The translations under genes were made by a program, and so were the position numbers. DNA of 64,000 nucleotides from a virus (Duplodnaviria > Caudoviricetes). The stretch spans positions 3-64,002 of the IMG/VR virus record IMGVR_UViG_3300045591_000321; one strand, written 5' to 3'. Positions 1,415 to 11,606 of the stretch are shown piece by piece; position 1 is the stretch's first letter; each line of letters opens with the position of its first letter. The notes beneath the pieces are model-generated. The model searched no databases. It had not been told where the DNA came from and saw only the letters and a program-made list of their open reading frames with translations.

Positions 1415-1849
1415 CTACATTTTGTCTTGGGCTGGCGGCGTTTGGCTGTGTGGTATATTGAGGTAATCCCGGAGCGCCGTTTCGAGGATTCGCGAGTAGT
1501 TTACCCCCCGCTGCTCCGCAGCCTCTTTAAGCCATGCCGGCAAGGTGATATTCGTTTTCACGCGTCGGTTATCCAACTCGTCACGAACCATGTCCGGATA
1601 CACGGTAACAGGAGAGATCATATAACCCGGCGCAGTGTCTGGATCAACCATGGGGACCTGTGTCGGCTCCGGAACAGGATCGCCGTCCTGCTCCATCCCG
1701 TAAAGATGCAGACCGAGGGCGTCGGCAGCTTCCCGCTGCGCATCCTCGAACGTTTTTCCAAAGCTGACACAGCCGGGCAGATCGGGAAAATAAACGCCGA
1801 AACCGTCCTTGCTGGGCTCGAAGACGGCCAAATATGATAATTTGCGCAT
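1415..1849 (-). CDS. hicB: HicB-family antitoxin
   Basis: YLAVFEP..GFGVYFPDLPGCVSFGKTFEDAQREAADAL N-terminus and RHH-like C-terminus (KTNITLPAWL); directly downstream of hicA. Confidence 0.92.
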   Translation of the reverse strand: MRKLSYLAVFEPSKDGFGVYFPDLPGCVSFGKTFEDAQREAADALGLHLYGMEQDGDPVPEPTQVPMVDPDTAPGYMISPVTVYPDMVRDELDNRRVKTNITLPAWLKEAAEQRGVNYSRILETALRDYLNIPHSQTPPAQDKM

Positions 1850-1882
1850 AAACATAACTCCCTTCTCACCTCAGGTGGGGCT

Positions 1883-2071
1883 TTACTCAAGCCTTGCCTG
1901 TTTTTTTATGCTCTTCAACGTGCCAAGGGGAATATCGCCTGAATGGTTCGGTACGGTCACTCTGCCGGGCTTTGTGGGGTGTTTGAGCTGAATATGGGAC
2001 CCTTTCGTTCGGCCCGGCACTTCCTGCCAGCCGTCATTATGAAGTATCCTCAAAATCTCCCGAACCGTCAA
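1883..2071 (-). CDS. hicA: HicA-family mRNA interferase toxin
   Basis: GWQEV..TKGSHIQLKHP..GRVTVP.H.GDIPLGTLKSI, with the catalytic GSH motif. Confidence 0.93.
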   Translation of the reverse strand: MTVREILRILHNDGWQEVPGRTKGSHIQLKHPTKPGRVTVPNHSGDIPLGTLKSIKKQARLE

Positions 2072-7539: not shown

Positions 7540-8889
7540 CTATTCGTCGCTCTCTTCATTACTGGTACTATTCCGTTGTAGGGAAAACCAACCCTCTGTC
7601 CATTCGGTTTCGGTGTACTCCCCGAAGATCCTTTTTCGAAGTGAATAGCTGTTGCAGTGTTTCAGCAGCGCCTCATAGGCGCTTATGGTCATTTTGGCCC
7701 GCTCCAGCGTGATTTCTCCGTTCCGGTAATCCTCCATCAATGCCCGCAGCTTCCGCCGCATTCGAAGGGCTGTACTCTTTCTCAACTTGACGTGGTTCGA
7801 CCATAGCCGGAACCCGCAAAATTCTATTCCCAAGCTGATCGGACGAATGCAGACCTTGTTGTTTAAGTCAAGCAGCAATCTTTCATTGATGAAGCGTTCC
7901 AGCGTCTCCTTCCACACCTTCAGCTGCTGCTTATCGTCTGATAGGATAATGACGTCGTCCATATAGCGAATGTAATACCTGATTCCAAGTTCCCTTTTCG
8001 CATACTGATCCAGGGGATTCAGGTTGAGATTGGCGAGCATTTGAGATGATAAGGAGCCGACTGGCATTCCCCGATCCGGGATGCGCTCGTTGCGCGGAAC
8101 TTCTTCCGGCCTCATTCCCGCCGGAAGCCCGAAATTGCGGTTGTTGTTGCATACCGTCGCCGCCATCCATGCCTGCACCTGCTTGTCGCTGACCTTTCGG
8201 TTGAACTCCCGCAATGCGACATCATGAGAAATCCGATAAAAGTACTTCGATATGTCCAACTTCAAATAATACCATTTGGGACCTTCCGGAGCATCCGGGA
8301 ATTCAATCCGTGACTTTCTGGCCACGGCCTGCAGATCGCCGATTGATATTTTTTCGGCCGTCGCATTCAGCAGGATTTCCCGAAATCCCGGATGAGTCCA
8401 AACTGACAGTTTGCCCTCGCCCCGAACACTCTGCCAGCCGGTTTCCGTCAAAGAATGAAAAACCGTGTTCATTGGGTAACACGGGACATTATTCGGTCTG
8501 TCCACCAGCTTCAGCCAATAATATAGCCTCTCTACCGCAGCTATTTGGCCCCTTCCGGGGATACATGCGTAGCTGTCAGAAATATAACCCGTCACAAATC
8601 GAGGGTTTAGTACCTGGTAGAAAGCCCACTGAATAACCCGATCCTCGAATGGCTGCGCCATAATCAGGCGGCACTTTGGCTCGTAAATATAAAATTCACG
8701 GTATGCGCCAGGTCGAAAATCACCAGACAGGAGCCGCTTCTGAATTCGGTGCAAATTGTCGATGAGATGTGCCGAAAACCTTAGGATTTCTTCTCGGTAC
8801 CGTTTGTCCCTTCTGGCATTGATGTACGCCCGGTGGATATTTTCGAAGCTTGCAATCTCTGAAAAAACGTTTTTTATTGTTTTTGGCAT
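7540..8889 (-). CDS. DGR reverse transcriptase with an internal HicA-like insertion
   Basis: EPKCRLI, FEDRVIQ, LKLDISKYF, GMPVGSLSSQMLAN (DGR-type SQ motif), YIRYMDD catalytic motif, GIEFCG; GAGGA RBS before the ATG at 8889. Confidence 0.96.
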   Translation of the reverse strand: MPKTIKNVFSEIASFENIHRAYINARRDKRYREEILRFSAHLIDNLHRIQKRLLSGDFRPGAYREFYIYEPKCRLIMAQPFEDRVIQWAFYQVLNPRFVTGYISDSYACIPGRGQIAAVERLYYWLKLVDRPNNVPCYPMNTVFHSLTETGWQSVRGEGKLSVWTHPGFREILLNATAEKISIGDLQAVARKSRIEFPDAPEGPKWYYLKLDISKYFYRISHDVALREFNRKVSDKQVQAWMAATVCNNNRNFGLPAGMRPEEVPRNERIPDRGMPVGSLSSQMLANLNLNPLDQYAKRELGIRYYIRYMDDVIILSDDKQQLKVWKETLERFINERLLLDLNNKVCIRPISLGIEFCGFRLWSNHVKLRKSTALRMRRKLRALMEDYRNGEITLERAKMTISAYEALLKHCNSYSLRKRIFGEYTETEWTEGWFSLQRNSTSNEESDE

Positions 8890-8899
8890 GAAATTCCTC

Positions 8900-9045
8900 A
8901 AAGAAGATTGCGCTTGGCGACTTTCACTCTGTTACTCGCAGCCTTCGCAATAGTTCATTTTTCTGCCTGTCGGCACGGAAACGAATTCCTTTATCCCCAG
9001 ACTCCGTGCGGCGTCCGTAGACGCGCGCCCCTGGTAATGGGGTAG
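8900..9045 (-). ncRNA. DGR spacer RNA segment 1 (downstream of TR1)
   Basis: Hairpin GCGTC-TACG-GACGC (9011-9024); motifs GATAAAGG..TTCC, AAAAATGAA and GC.AGTAAC..G.GAAAG.CGCC shared with spacers 2 and 3. Confidence 0.7.
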
Positions 9046-9156
9046 AGCGGCGCGGAAACCCACATCGAGATTAGTAAACGCGCGGGTGAAATTGAGGTTG
9101 AGGGCGAACACGCCAGCATTGGAATAGTTCCAGAAGGAACCACCGCGAAAAGGCAA
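9046..9156 (-). repeat. DGR template repeat TR1 (111 nt)
   Basis: Reads LPFRGGSFWNYSNAGVFALNLNFTRAFTNLDVGFRAA; matches the VR 5' part except at adenines. Confidence 0.92.
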
Positions 9157-9159
9157 AAC

Positions 9160-9316
9160 AAATTCGTTCCCATTTTGCAAAGGGGCGGCTTTCGCTTTCG
9201 TTACTTGCGGCCCCTTTACGGTTCATTTTTCACTTTAAAATCAAGTTTGGAAGCAGCTCCCTTTATCCTCAAGCTCTGTGTGGTGTCAATAGACACACAC
9301 CTCCGGCGTAAGGTAG
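9160..9316 (-). ncRNA. DGR spacer RNA segment 2 (downstream of TR2)
   Basis: Hairpin GTGTC-TATT-GACAC (9283-9296) and the same three motifs at equivalent spacing. Confidence 0.7.
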
Positions 9317-9427
9317 AGCGGCGCGGAAACCCACATTGACCCATGAGCCCGCGCGGGGATTGTTCAGATCAAGGGCGAACACGCCAGCATTCGCACCATT
9401 GAGAAAGGAACCACCGCGAAAAGGCAA
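9317..9427 (-). repeat. DGR template repeat TR2 (111 nt)
   Basis: Reads LPFRGGSFLNGANAGVFALDLNNPRAGSWVNVGFRAA; matches the VR 3' part except at adenines. Confidence 0.92.
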
Positions 9428-9429
9428 GC

Positions 9430-9600
9430 TATGAACTACTCCCGGATCTTCTCAAGTAATGCCATTTTTTGCGGGGTTCGCTTCGCTACTGCCGGCTTAT
9501 ATGGCACTTCATTTTTTTGCTTTTTGAAGCAAGGAAATAAGTCCCTTTAATCTCCGTTCCGTCCACTCGTTCGTAAACAAGCGGCTCTGACATGAGATAG
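9430..9600 (-). ncRNA. DGR spacer RNA segment 3 (downstream of TR3)
   Basis: Hairpin CCGCTTGTT-TACG-AACGAGTGG with G-U pairs (9563-9584) and the same three motifs. Confidence 0.68.
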
Positions 9601-9711
9601 AGCGGCGCGGAAACCCTCATCCCAGCTGGAATTCGCGCGGGAATCAGCAAAATAGAGGGCGAACACGCCAGCAGCCCCCGCATTGTTCCAGGAACCACCG
9701 CGAAAAGGCAA
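9601..9711 (-). repeat. DGR template repeat TR3 (111 nt)
   Basis: Reads LPFRGGSWNNAGAAGVFALYFADSRANSSWDEGFRAA; same adenine-free conserved blocks and same length as TR1, TR2 and VR. Confidence 0.88.
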
Positions 9712-9727
9712 GTATGACCTATTCCCA

Positions 9728-10246
9728 TCAGTCTTTAGAGATTTTCTTCTGACACGCATAGCACAGGGATTTTCCAAAATGCGCCGTGGAATAATCGCTG
9801 ATTCTCTTTGTTATAACGGTACCGCATTCCGAACAGAGATACTCCTTCCCGTCCGAATCAATCGTGCCTGACTTTTCTCGTTCAGATTTCAGCCATCCAC
9901 CCACCATTTGGCCAACCTCAATGATACAATTTGAAATATTCTCAAACTGTGGATCCTTCAAATACCCTAAATCATTCGCCCACTGAATATCCATCTTGAA
10001 AGCACCGATTTCAGTGTCCAATTGGCGCAAGGTGTCTTTTTTTGTATACTTTTTATTCGCAACAAAAACCAGCTTTTTGATAGAGTTGAATTCTTCCATC
10101 AGCGTCTGAACGATTACAAAGCGCTGCTCTTTACTCATTCTCCCAAGCACTGGCCAAAGATATAGGCCAAGGTCATACACCTTTTGTTGAATAAAAAGCT
10201 GCTCATATGATTTGCTGAAATGTCTATGATTGTTTTTTTCTGGCAT
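9728..10246 (-). CDS. avd: DGR accessory protein Avd (four-helix bundle) with a C-terminal C4 zinc finger; alternative start 10261
   Basis: FIQQKVYDL, ANKKYTKKDTLRQLDTEI, EVGQMVGGWLK Avd signature; lies between the target gene and the TRs. Confidence 0.9.
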   Translation of the reverse strand: MPEKNNHRHFSKSYEQLFIQQKVYDLGLYLWPVLGRMSKEQRFVIVQTLMEEFNSIKKLVFVANKKYTKKDTLRQLDTEIGAFKMDIQWANDLGYLKDPQFENISNCIIEVGQMVGGWLKSEREKSGTIDSDGKEYLCSECGTVITKRISDYSTAHFGKSLCYACQKKISKD

Positions 10247-10391
10247 AGGTGCTCCGTACATTTCAAAAATTTCTTATTGCGTAAAATTATACGCGAATTT
10301 CGACATGAAAATCTCAATTTTGGAACGAAATTACCATTTTCGTAATTTTAGAATGCAATAAAAGAAAACCAGAAATTTTGAATTTTCGCGA

Positions 10392-10457: not shown

Positions 10458-11606
10458 TCACAGGTCGCAAAAAGCGGCGCGGAAACCCACATTGACCCAC
10501 GAGCCCGCGCGGGGATTGTCCAGATCAAGGGCGAACACGCCAGCATCGGAATAGTACCAGAAGGAACCACCGCGAAAAGGCAAGCGTTCTCCGTAATTTC
10601 TAATCCAGAAATAATCACCATTCAGACTGTTGTCAACAGGGAAAATTCCAAGATCTTTCAGAAGCTGCGGAACGGTTACACCTGAAGCTGCCGCCACACT
10701 CTCAAACGTTGCATTTAATTCTCCGTAATAATCATCAACGTTTCCACCTGTGTAAGCCGGTTTATCGTTCTTGATGTCCAACACCGGCGCACCAACGTAA
10801 TTGTCTGCCTGCGTTGCATTGCCGACAGCGGATCCGTTATATTTCAGCGTATTCGCAGCTCCCGGAAGTGCGAGGCTGCCATCCTGAAGGATTGCCCGCC
10901 ACAGGTTGCTATTTCTGCTCTCGTCAACCGCAGCAGCCGAATTATTATCCGGAATAATCTGAATTTCGCCGTTCATGAGCCGCAGCCCGGAAGTCCATTC
11001 CCATACATTCCCATTCAGATCACACACACCATCAGGCGTGCCATCGTGTCGCCACGATGCAGGACCTGAACCCGTAAGAGTCCGGCCCGTGTGGTGATAT
11101 CCCTGCGCATCGTGGTAATTGGCCATGTTATTCCAGTTGTTGGCGTCGATCCAGTCGTAAGACTGGACGCCATGCTCCCACGCATGATCGACATCGCGTC
11201 CGCAATAATTATTTCCGCGCGGGATCGTTCCGTTTGTCTTACACCAATGAGCCAGCAACATCCATTCCGAATTGGACAGCAGATGCCATCCCTTCCCTTT
11301 CGCTTCGCAGGCCGCTTTTGCCTGGTCGAAATTTATCCACGCCGCCGGGTCGCGTCCAGGCAAGCTGTAGGCCCGCCCGCCCTCAACAACGTTCTGATAC
11401 TTCGAAACATAGATGTAATCGACTTCCTTTCCGTTGACAATGAACGCCGAGCATGTCGTAGGCGGGCCTCCTGCAACAATATCGGACCAACGGCATTTCG
11501 GGATTTTTACCATAACACTGGGAAGCCCAAGATCATCCAAAATCAGGGTGTTTCTGCCGCCTGTGGCGGATTCCAAGGCAAAGCGTTCCCTATCGAATCT
11601 GCTCAT
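10458..11606 (-). CDS. DGR target: Mtd-like receptor-binding protein with FGE-sulfatase/C-type lectin fold
   Basis: SKYQ, INFDQAKAAC, WHLLSNSEW, DLNGNVWEW, RGGS...GFRAA motifs; follows the baseplate and tail-fibre genes. Confidence 0.92.
   Translation of the reverse strand: MSRFDRERFALESATGGRNTLILDDLGLPSVMVKIPKCRWSDIVAGGPPTTCSAFIVNGKEVDYIYVSKYQNVVEGGRAYSLPGRDPAAWINFDQAKAACEAKGKGWHLLSNSEWMLLAHWCKTNGTIPRGNNYCGRDVDHAWEHGVQSYDWIDANNWNNMANYHDAQGYHHTGRTLTGSGPASWRHDGTPDGVCDLNGNVWEWTSGLRLMNGEIQIIPDNNSAAAVDESRNSNLWRAILQDGSLALPGAANTLKYNGSAVGNATQADNYVGAPVLDIKNDKPAYTGGNVDDYYGELNATFESVAAASGVTVPQLLKDLGIFPVDNSLNGDYFWIRNYGERLPFRGGSFWYYSDAGVFALDLDNPRAGSWVNVGFRAAFCDL
10473..10583 (-). repeat. DGR variable repeat (VR, 111 nt), a TR1/TR2 chimera
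   Basis: Encodes LPFRGGSFWYYSDAGVFALDLDNPRAGSWVNVGFRAA at the target C-terminus and ends in the GC-rich element GGTTTCCGCGCCGCT. Confidence 0.95.

What the first reader, a model, noticed from the sequence alone, without database searches (positions are those of the whole stretch)
8305..8472. HicA-like (dsRBD-fold) domain inserted in the DGR reverse transcriptase
Seen: a 56-aa core (MNTVFHSLTETGWQSVRGEGKLSVWTHPGFREILLNATAEKISIGDLQAVARKSRI) interrupts the RT just before WYYLKLDISKYF. It resembles this phage's own HicA: LxxxGWQxV, HP, and ISIGDLQAVARKSRIE vs IPLGTLKSIKKQARLE. The catalytic GSH is replaced by GKL. Known: HicA toxins are RNases with a dsRBD-like fold that need this His. Inference: a catalytically dead RNA-binding module captured by the RT, possibly for binding or choosing among several TR-spacer RNAs, or linking DGR activity to HicB.
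Basis: partly seen in the sequence, partly recalled or inferred. Interest (0 to 1): 0.82.

Follow-up and report, generated by a model that had tools for sequence, protein, structure and literature searches.

The report
Dead HicA domain inside DGR transcriptase
A prophage's mutagenic reverse transcriptase carries, in a surface loop next to its active site, a 72-residue domain that descends from a HicA toxin but has lost the catalytic histidine. I found no earlier report of an extra folded domain inside this class of enzyme, and what the domain does is still untested.

Summary
The DGR reverse transcriptase (RT; window 7540-8889, minus strand, 449 aa) has a clean 72-aa insertion (8278-8493) between RT motif 2 and the strand carrying the motif-3 catalytic Asp. 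Its closest relatives (374-391 aa) lack it.

The insert is HicA-like by several tests:
- A profile of the inserts finds only HicA at the top of the PDB sequences.
- hhalign against 45 phage HicAs gives P = 6e-6; 200 column shuffles never came close.
- The AlphaFold model matches HicA crystal structures: the Foldseek top six are all HicA, and VIA-align gives Z 8.1-8.8.

The catalytic G-S-H is G-K-L here, and no insert copy has a His there.

The insert was probably acquired once. It evolves at dN/dS about 0.1-0.2. It occurs in about a dozen fermentation-metagenome or prophage contigs, and in none of 185,579 species genomes.

It is not tied to multi-template arrays. Insert-bearing loci have 1 to about 4 template repeats (TRs), and an insert-less sister locus has 6.

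My best guess is a nuclease-dead RNA-contact or structural subdomain on the RT fingers. A tolerated passenger remains a serious rival. The scan holds no look-alike stretch on other DNA.

The parts
7540..8889 (-). DGR reverse transcriptase gene (449 aa from the ATG; the mechanical ORF starts at a TTG at 8901)
   Evidence: PF00078 E = 4e-16. Best PDB match by sequence profile and by fold is the Bordetella phage bRT, 8ub7_A (E = 5.6e-61; Foldseek E = 8.6e-22, TM 0.85 on the target). YMDD, the motif-A Asp and VGSLSSQ are all present. AF2 model pLDDT 89.8.
8278..8493 (-). 72-aa insertion (RT residues 133-204), absent from sister RTs
   Evidence: Alignments A1 and A3. The site corresponds to bRT T129-H133, the loop before the strand with catalytic D138.
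8305..8472 (-). HicA-fold core of the insert (alpha-beta-beta-beta-alpha, colinear with a whole HicA ORF)
   Evidence: hmmsearch against PDB: the top three hits are HicA, E = 0.03-0.05. hhalign probability 85%, P = 6e-6 over 55 columns, with shuffle control. Foldseek top six are HicA, probability 0.99-1.00. VIA-align Z 8.1-8.8. AF2 pLDDT 80 when folded alone and 82-94 within the full RT.
8407..8415 (-). G-K-L (RT residues 159-161) at the place of HicA's G-S-H catalytic motif
   Evidence: Alignments. The His position is Leu, or Pro in L010, in all insert copies. The role of the His is taken from PMC11594946 and PMC6159526.
8473..8493 (-). N-terminal linker NNVPCYP, nearly invariant across the clade; predicted to add a short strand to the domain
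   Evidence: Invariant N5, N6, P8, C9, Y10 in A2/A5. Strand E8-11 in the model.
8278..8304 (-). C-terminal linker E-FPDAPEGP leading into K-W-YYLKLD
   Evidence: F69 and P73 are invariant and A72 nearly invariant.
8242..8274 (-). RT motif 3/A strand WYYLKLDISKY with the catalytic Asp (D212)
   Evidence: Invariant columns in A1/A3, aligned to bRT FLKSDFSKF with D138.
1883..2071 (-). Free-standing HicA toxin gene of the prophage (comparator and possible donor family)
   Evidence: PF07927 E = 6.2e-22.
1415..1855 (-). HicB antitoxin gene
   Evidence: PF15919 E = 9.3e-16 plus a C-terminal RHH.
8932..9777 (-). Three TR-plus-spacer units between avd and the RT (TR cores 9046-9156, 9317-9427, 9601-9711): context for the RT's substrate
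   Evidence: Repeat family D1 and the mosaic analysis.
9728..10261 (-). Avd with a C-terminal zinc-ribbon extension
   Evidence: PF22296 E = 5.4e-16; weak Zn-ribbon hits at residues 134-175.
10458..11606 (-). DGR target gene (FGE-sulfatase/C-type-lectin-like) with the VR at 10473-10583
   Evidence: PF03781. The VR is a mosaic of two TRs with 4 mismatches, all at template adenines.

Best explanation
A complete hicA-like coding unit became fixed in frame in a permissive surface loop of a prophage DGR reverse transcriptase. The loop lies at the end of the RT2a region, directly before the motif-3 strand that carries the catalytic Asp. The unit is about 58 residues, from start to last codon, and is flanked by two short linkers.

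The domain kept the HicA alpha-beta-beta-beta-alpha fold but lost the catalytic His (G-S-H became G-K-L). By the known HicA mechanism it cannot be an RNase. The RT that carries it still works in an active DGR.

Shown here: fold and homology, loss of the His, a probable single acquisition, purifying selection, and adenine-specific VR/TR differences.

Inferred: the domain now serves as an extra, nuclease-dead subdomain on the fingers. It would touch the DGR RNA that wraps the enzyme (the template entry side or the spacer), or simply buttress the RT2a region. This would be analogous to the RT2a/NTE expansions that tighten template binding in group II intron RTs.

My odds: identity as a degenerate HicA-derived insert 0.9; RNA-contact or structural accessory role about 0.45.
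For: Identity:
- Profile hits to HicA only.
- PF07927 hits for 2 of 6 insert copies.
- hhalign P = 6e-6 with shuffle control.
- Foldseek and VIA-align put HicA structures on top with a clear gap to the next rows. Viral HicA/toxin models lead in BFVD.

Placement: a clean 72-aa block against sister RTs. The site maps to bRT T129-H133. The same loop carries a 15-aa expansion in another clade, so it tolerates insertions.

One origin: the insert-bearing RTs sit on one side of a branch, SH-aLRT 97, with the insert columns removed.

Constraint: dN/dS is 0.1-0.2 in the insert against 0.02-0.08 in the rest of the RT in unsaturated pairs.

Active enzyme: RT motifs are intact, and VR/TR mismatches fall at template adenines in the window and in relatives.

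RNA plausibility:
- bRT is almost entirely enveloped by spacer RNA and has no accessory subdomain of its own (10.1101/2023.10.23.563531).
- RT2a/NTE expansions tighten binding pockets in related RTs (PMC11761039).
- Two basic positions in helix 2 are kept in all insert copies.
- A 3' spacer hairpin is about 10 nt shorter in the insert clade than in two insert-less loci.
Against: - No RNA-binding test was possible.
- The core's net charge (+1 to +4) is well below that of free HicAs (+4 to +9), and the whole insert in the window is about neutral.
- Between the two subclades (38% identity in the insert), the conserved positions are mostly the linkers and the hydrophobic core, not an obvious surface patch.
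- Purifying selection could reflect only the need to stay folded inside an essential enzyme.
- The spacer RNAs of insert-bearing and insert-less clades share the same ordered elements.
Confidence: 0.5

Rival explanations
1. Tolerated passenger. A hicA gene landed in a loop that accepts insertions and is retained only because a misfolded or deleted version would damage the RT. It adds nothing to DGR function.
For: - The loop is length-variable: 0, 15 or 72 extra residues in three clades.
- Conservation is concentrated in the core and linkers.
- The insert evolves 2-5 times faster than the RT body.
- Sister DGRs do the same things without it, including multi-TR arrays and mosaic VRs.
- The clade is rare.
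- An earlier scan note describes a HicBA cassette as a passenger inside another DGR (not checked here).
Against: - dN/dS of 0.1-0.2 has persisted across lineages that are saturated at synonymous sites.
- No insert-bearing copy shows decay or partial deletion of the domain.
- The linkers are nearly invariant, which suggests a fixed docking geometry.
Confidence: 0.3
2. HicB dock. The dead HicA domain still binds the phage's HicB antitoxin. Either HicB gates the RT, or the RT titrates HicB, coupling mutagenic retrohoming to the toxin-antitoxin module.
For: - Every sufficiently long contig of the main insert subclade carries hicA-hicB about 4-5.5 kb downstream of the RT (window, L007, L008, L096, L097, L098, L101).
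- Two insert-less sister prophages have no hicAB within 10 kb; one has ParE there.
- In solved complexes HicB binds the face that carries the catalytic His (PMC11594946, PMC6159526).
Against: - The co-occurrence is confounded by shared phage ancestry, and the sample is small.
- Several polar HicB contacts listed for S. pneumoniae HicA (Ser35, His36, Lys38 and other lysines) are changed in the insert (S to K, H to L, loss of basic residues).
- The insert is only about 24% identical to the phage's HicA and lacks that HicA's 2-residue loop insertion.
- For the second subclade (L102/L103) no hicAB is visible in the short flanks.
Confidence: 0.1
3. Template selector. The domain exists to handle or choose among several TR-spacer RNAs in multi-template DGRs.
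For: The window and several relatives have 2-4 TR units, and their VRs are mosaics of two TRs.
Against: - Insert-bearing L103 has a single TR, while L102, with the same RT sequence, has three.
- Insert-less L013 has six TR units and also a mosaic VR.
- Insert-less P0013 occurs with one TR (L012) and with a gap large enough for about four (L105).
Confidence: 0.05
4. Not HicA at all: a chance alpha/beta mini-domain, or a generic dsRBD.
For: BLASTP and Pfam on the window's own insert are silent. The PDB E-values are only 0.03-0.05.
Against: Four independent kinds of comparison all pick HicA first, with a clear gap below. Canonical dsRBDs (the Dicer-like proteins) reach only Z 2.7-2.9.
Confidence: 0.03

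Closest known systems
HicA toxins of type II HicAB systems (PF07927; structures 6G26, 4P78, 5YRZ, 1WHZ)
   Same: Same alpha-beta-beta-beta-alpha fold, over essentially the whole length of a HicA. It keeps the DGW-type helix end, the Gly before the active-site strand (in one subclade), the HP turn (in most copies) and the basic C-terminal helix.
   Different: Not a free-standing protein. The catalytic His is Leu or Pro. Net charge is much lower. It fails the Pfam gathering score. It is not encoded next to hicB but inside an RT gene.
Bordetella phage BPP-1 bRT in the bRT-Avd-RNA ribonucleoprotein (8UB7; Handa et al., 10.1101/2023.10.23.563531)
   Same: Best sequence and fold match for the RT body. 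The locus has the same architecture: target gene with VR, avd, TR plus spacer, RT.
   Different: bRT (328 aa) is described as lacking any additional subdomain. Here 72 residues are inserted where bRT has the 5-residue turn T129-H133.
[quoted passage not shown]
   Same: An expansion between RT2 and RT3 on the fingers. In those enzymes such expansions shape template/primer binding and are sites of lineage-specific adaptation.
   Different: Those expansions are helical elaborations of the RT fold itself. This one is a foreign, autonomous domain of recognisable toxin ancestry.
HicB-HicA cassette lying between TR and RT of a Candidatus Kaiserbacteria DGR (earlier scan note e1-1564629)
   Same: Shows that hicAB genes can land inside DGR loci, which gives a plausible route for the capture.
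   Different: There the genes are intact, separate passengers. Here only a degenerate HicA-like domain remains, and it is translated as part of the RT. I did not check that note.

Membership tests
HicA toxin family (PF07927) | dsRBD-like alpha-beta-beta-beta-alpha fold superposable on solved HicA structures | tested here: met
   AF2 model pLDDT 80. Foldseek top six are all HicA (TM on target 0.64-0.85, rmsd 1.8-3.4 A). VIA-align Z 8.1-8.8, rmsd 1.4-2.8 over 56-66 residues, next unrelated row 6.3.
HicA toxin family (PF07927) | Sequence passes the Pfam gathering score (27 bits) | tested here: not met
   The window's insert gives no hit at E <= 10. Two of six insert copies hit PF07927, best E = 0.0033. 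Profile-profile homology is nevertheless supported (hhalign P = 6e-6).
HicA toxin family (PF07927) | Conserved catalytic His in the G-S-H motif (His24 BpsHicA, His28 YpHicA3, His36 StpHicA) | tested here: not met
   The aligned residues are G-K-L in the window, and Leu or Pro in all copies. The role of the His is from PMC11594946 and PMC6159526.
HicA toxin family (PF07927) | Small free-standing protein encoded beside a hicB antitoxin gene | tested here: not met
   Embedded at residues 133-204 of a 449-aa RT. The phage's real hicA-hicB pair lies about 6 kb away.
HicA toxin family (PF07927) | Binds and is neutralised by HicB | not testable with these tools
HicA toxin family (PF07927) | RNase activity / growth arrest on expression | not testable with these tools
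   Needs an experiment. Absence of the His predicts no activity.
DGR reverse transcriptase | RT motifs with catalytic Asp residues (motif A Asp, YxDD) and the DGR-type motif 4 [ILV]GxxxSQ | tested here: met
   LKLD(212)ISKYF, VGSLSSQ and YMDD are present and conserved. PF00078 E = 4e-16.
DGR reverse transcriptase | Closest to bRT among solved RTs | tested here: met
   8ub7_A: E = 5.6e-61 by profile; Foldseek E = 8.6e-22.
DGR reverse transcriptase | Neighbouring Avd, and a TR/VR pair differing at template adenines | tested here: met
   bAvd PF22296. The VR equals a mosaic of two TRs with 4 mismatches, all at A. In the single-TR sister L012, all 9 of 9 mismatches are at A.
Canonical dsRBD (e.g. 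Dicer/Staufen type) | Fold match to RNA-bound dsRBDs, with the helix-1, loop-2 and helix-2 KKxAK RNA-contact motifs | tested here: inconclusive
   Dicer-like dsRBDs appear only at Z 2.7-2.9. There is no KKxAK; two basic residues are kept in helix 2.

The most novel reading that the evidence does not exclude
The dead HicA domain is a working interface rather than ballast. Either it docks the prophage's HicB, so that the toxin-antitoxin module gates when the RT may mutate the receptor-binding gene. Or it grips the DGR RNA at the template entry and changes processivity or template switching in these multi-template elements. Either way it would be the first toxin-derived regulatory or RNA-handling subdomain built into a DGR enzyme.
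Probability: 0.12. Interest if true: 0.8.

Novelty: new variant of a known kind. Interest (0 to 1): 0.55.

Why it matters
DGR reverse transcriptases are regarded as minimal enzymes that rely on Avd and on an enveloping RNA. The only solved one is explicitly described as lacking accessory subdomains.

A naturally occurring DGR RT that carries a foreign, folded, toxin-derived domain beside its active site, and still mutagenises, shows three things:
- The RT2a-RT3 loop is a permissive site for domain grafting. That is useful for engineering DGR or group-II-type RTs.
- Toxin-antitoxin genes can be exapted into retroelement enzymes.
- There is a natural with/without pair (sister RTs at about 60% identity) for asking what an extra RNA-binding-fold module does to cDNA synthesis.

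If the domain turned out to bind HicB, it would link a toxin-antitoxin system to targeted hypermutation.

Tried and rejected
- BLASTP of the insert against the phage HicA: no alignment at E <= 100.
- Pfam on the window's insert, three lengths: nothing.
- phmmer of the 83-aa insert against 1.84 billion representatives: only the clade's own cluster, P0005.
- Word-indexed search restricted to the insert region: only P0002-P0005 and P0007.
- Insert profile against proteins of 42-137 aa, looking for a free-standing donor: nothing at E <= 10. The donor HicA lineage stays unidentified.
- Pattern scan of 185,579 species genomes: no insert.
- ESM Atlas: busy the first time, then no usable hit.
- Complex prediction (whole RT alignment A3 + HicB N-domain alignment A4): unreachable ten times (include these attempts). 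There is therefore no verdict on HicB binding.
- Literature searches for HicA together with DGR or RT insertion found no description of such a domain.
- Intein or mobile-element origin of the insert: considered and dropped, because the block is too short and folds as HicA.
- An internal start at Met140 (as in the gene call for P0105): rejected, because that contig simply holds a 5'-truncated RT whose upstream frame continues into motif 2.
- Model coordinates are not exposed by the tools, so I could not determine which face of the domain packs on the RT.

Full report
**What is there**

The window is a complete IMG/VR provirus record of 64,002 bp. On the minus strand it carries a DGR:
- a target gene (10458-11606) with its VR at the 3' end;
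- avd with a zinc-ribbon tail (9728-10261);
- three TR-plus-spacer units (8932-9777);
- the RT (7540-8889).

Alignment of the RT with its nearest homologues shows that most of them are 374-391 aa. They lack one clean block of 72 residues, RT residues 133-204, window 8278-8493. The block sits between motif 2 (SYACIPGRG) and the strand WYYLKLDISKYF that carries the motif-3/A catalytic Asp.

In the solved Bordetella phage enzyme this place is the short turn T129-H133, just before D138. In the nomenclature of non-LTR-retroelement RTs it is the end of the RT2a region.

**Is it HicA-like?**

Simple tools say nothing. BLASTP against the phage's own HicA (1883-2071, PF07927 E = 6e-22) finds no alignment, and Pfam is silent on the window's insert.

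With a profile of six insert copies the picture changes:
- The three best hits among 177,635 distinct PDB sequences are all HicA (6G26, 4C26, 4P78; E = 0.03-0.05). They cover the whole domain.
- Two of the six copies hit PF07927 on their own, best E = 0.0033.
- hhalign of the insert alignment against 45 phage HicAs collected from IMG/VR gives probability 85% and P = 6e-6 over 55 columns. Two hundred column shuffles reached at most score 16.3, against 31.7.

An AlphaFold2 model of the insert alone (pLDDT 80) has the order strand-helix-three strands-short strand-helix.
- Foldseek ranks six HicA structures first (probability 0.99-1.00, TM on target 0.64-0.85) and then drops to probability 0.33.
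- VIA-align, which does not depend on Foldseek, puts four HicA family chains on top at Z 8.1-8.8 (rmsd 1.4-2.8 A over 56-66 residues).
- The E. coli HicA scores Z 4.9, canonical Dicer-type dsRBDs only 2.7-2.9, and general background is about 3.
- In the viral model library the hits are phage HicA/toxin proteins.

I conclude the insert is a diverged member of the HicA fold lineage, not a generic dsRBD. The aligned region runs from within two residues of HicA's start to its last residue. This is what one expects if a whole hicA reading frame was captured together with a few flanking codons. That origin is an inference.

**Catalytic state**

In every alignment the G-S-H motif of HicA falls on G-K-L (8407-8415). 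The other insert copies have Leu, or in one case Pro, at the His position. That His is the one residue shown to be needed for RNase activity or toxicity in Y. pestis, B. pseudomallei, S. pneumoniae and E. coli HicAs. It is also the residue that HicB masks (PMC11594946; PMC6159526). By that criterion the domain is not a nuclease.

**Distribution and evolution**

- The insert occurs in a small set of RTs (P0002-P0007, P0105).
- It is found in one further IMG/VR contig and eight metagenome contigs, most of them labelled fermentation metagenomes.
- It is in none of 185,579 species-representative genomes.
- With the insert columns removed, the insert-bearing RTs fall on one side of a branch with SH-aLRT 97 in a quick ML tree. 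This is consistent with one acquisition. The careful search did not finish, and two short rows were left out.
- Where synonymous sites are not saturated, dN/dS in the insert is 0.11-0.20. One very close pair, based on few changes, gives 0.40. The rest of the RT gives 0.02-0.08. The domain is therefore kept, but more loosely than the polymerase.
- The most conserved positions are the two linkers (NNxPCYP, FPDAPE) and core hydrophobics. Surface residues differ a great deal between the two subclades.
- The same loop carries an unrelated 15-residue expansion in another clade of these RTs, so it is a permissive site.
- No free-standing close relative of the insert could be found.

**Is the enzyme working?**

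- The full-length model is confident throughout, insert included (pLDDT 89.8).
- Its best structural match is bRT in the DGR ribonucleoprotein.
- All catalytic motifs are intact.
- The window's VR equals positions 1-36 of the RT-proximal TR joined to positions 37-111 of the middle TR, with four mismatches, all at template adenines.
- Relatives with the insert show the same pattern: L096 has 6 mismatches at A and 1 elsewhere; L005 has 5 at A and 1 elsewhere.

So DGRs with this RT have been mutagenising.

(a) Template choice.
- TR number varies from 1 to about 4 among insert-bearing loci, even for one and the same RT sequence (L102 has three, L103 has one).
- Insert-less sisters range from one TR (L012) to six (L013).
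- L013 also has a mosaic VR.
- The insert is therefore neither needed for, nor restricted to, multi-template DGRs.

(b) RNA binding: not testable here.
- In favour: bRT is almost wholly wrapped by spacer RNA. The insertion site is on the fingers, where related RTs have template-binding expansions. Two basic positions in helix 2 are kept. One 3' spacer hairpin is about 10 nt shorter in the insert clade.
- Against: the core's net charge is only +1 to +4, compared with +4 to +9 for free HicAs. No conserved surface patch is evident. The spacers of both clades share the same elements.

(c) HicB link.
- All sufficiently long contigs of the main subclade carry hicAB about 4-5.5 kb downstream of the RT.
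- Two insert-less sister prophages have none within 10 kb.
- This is what shared ancestry would also give.
- Several polar HicB contacts described for S. pneumoniae HicA are altered in the insert.
There is no verdict.

**Verdict**

I found no description of this in the searchable literature, and the one solved DGR RT is stated to lack extra subdomains.

I rate it a new variant of a known kind. My odds on mechanism:
- about 0.45: an RNA-contacting or buttressing accessory subdomain;
- about 0.3: a tolerated passenger;
- about 0.1: a HicB dock;
- about 0.05: a template selector.

The scan's index holds no look-alike of this insert on other DNA.

Noticed in passing
window 10473-10583 (VR) against 9046-9156 and 9317-9427 (TRs), minus strand: The VR matches no single TR. 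It is a two-piece mosaic: positions 1-36 come from the RT-proximal TR and positions 37-111 from the middle TR. All 4 residual mismatches are at template adenines. The same mosaic pattern appears in L096, L005 and the insert-less L013. This suggests template switching, or successive partial homing, among arrayed TRs.
   Followed up: partly
L102 vs L103; L012 vs L105; L013:2240-4000: The number of TR-spacer units is highly polymorphic, even with an identical RT. L102 has 3 and L103 has 1. P0013 occurs with 1 (L012) and with a roughly 1.1-kb avd-RT gap, room for about 4 (L105). L013 has six units.
   Followed up: partly
window 9728-9860 (minus), C-terminus of Avd: Avd carries a C-terminal extension of about 45 aa with two CxxC pairs (weak zinc-ribbon Pfam hits). 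Sister Avds of 167-181 aa seem to have it too.
   Followed up: no
A3 alignment, proteins P0085, P0086, P0089, P0106, P0110, P0119: Another clade of these RTs has an unrelated 15-residue expansion (Y-x-A-x-K-x-G...) at exactly the same loop. It also ends in K-W before YYLK.
   Followed up: no
L104:1-1480: The target gene is followed after about 150 nt by the RT, with no avd or separate TR between. This looks like a deletion by VR/TR recombination, or an assembly collapse.
   Followed up: no
L010:862-1986: An insert-bearing RT is truncated at its 5' end inside motif 2 (the frame opens at ...DSYACITGRG) and abuts unrelated, oppositely oriented genes. It is either a dead copy or a chimeric contig.
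   Followed up: partly
A6 columns 127-136 (window about 8925-8945): The spacer RNAs of insert-bearing and insert-less clades align with the same ordered motifs. The insert clade lacks about 10 nt in the loop of a 3' hairpin (AGTA-C ... GAAAG).
   Followed up: no
L105:16686-16946; L106: Insert-less sister prophages lack hicAB within 10 kb downstream of the RT. L105 has a ParE-family toxin gene in the comparable end region.
   Followed up: no
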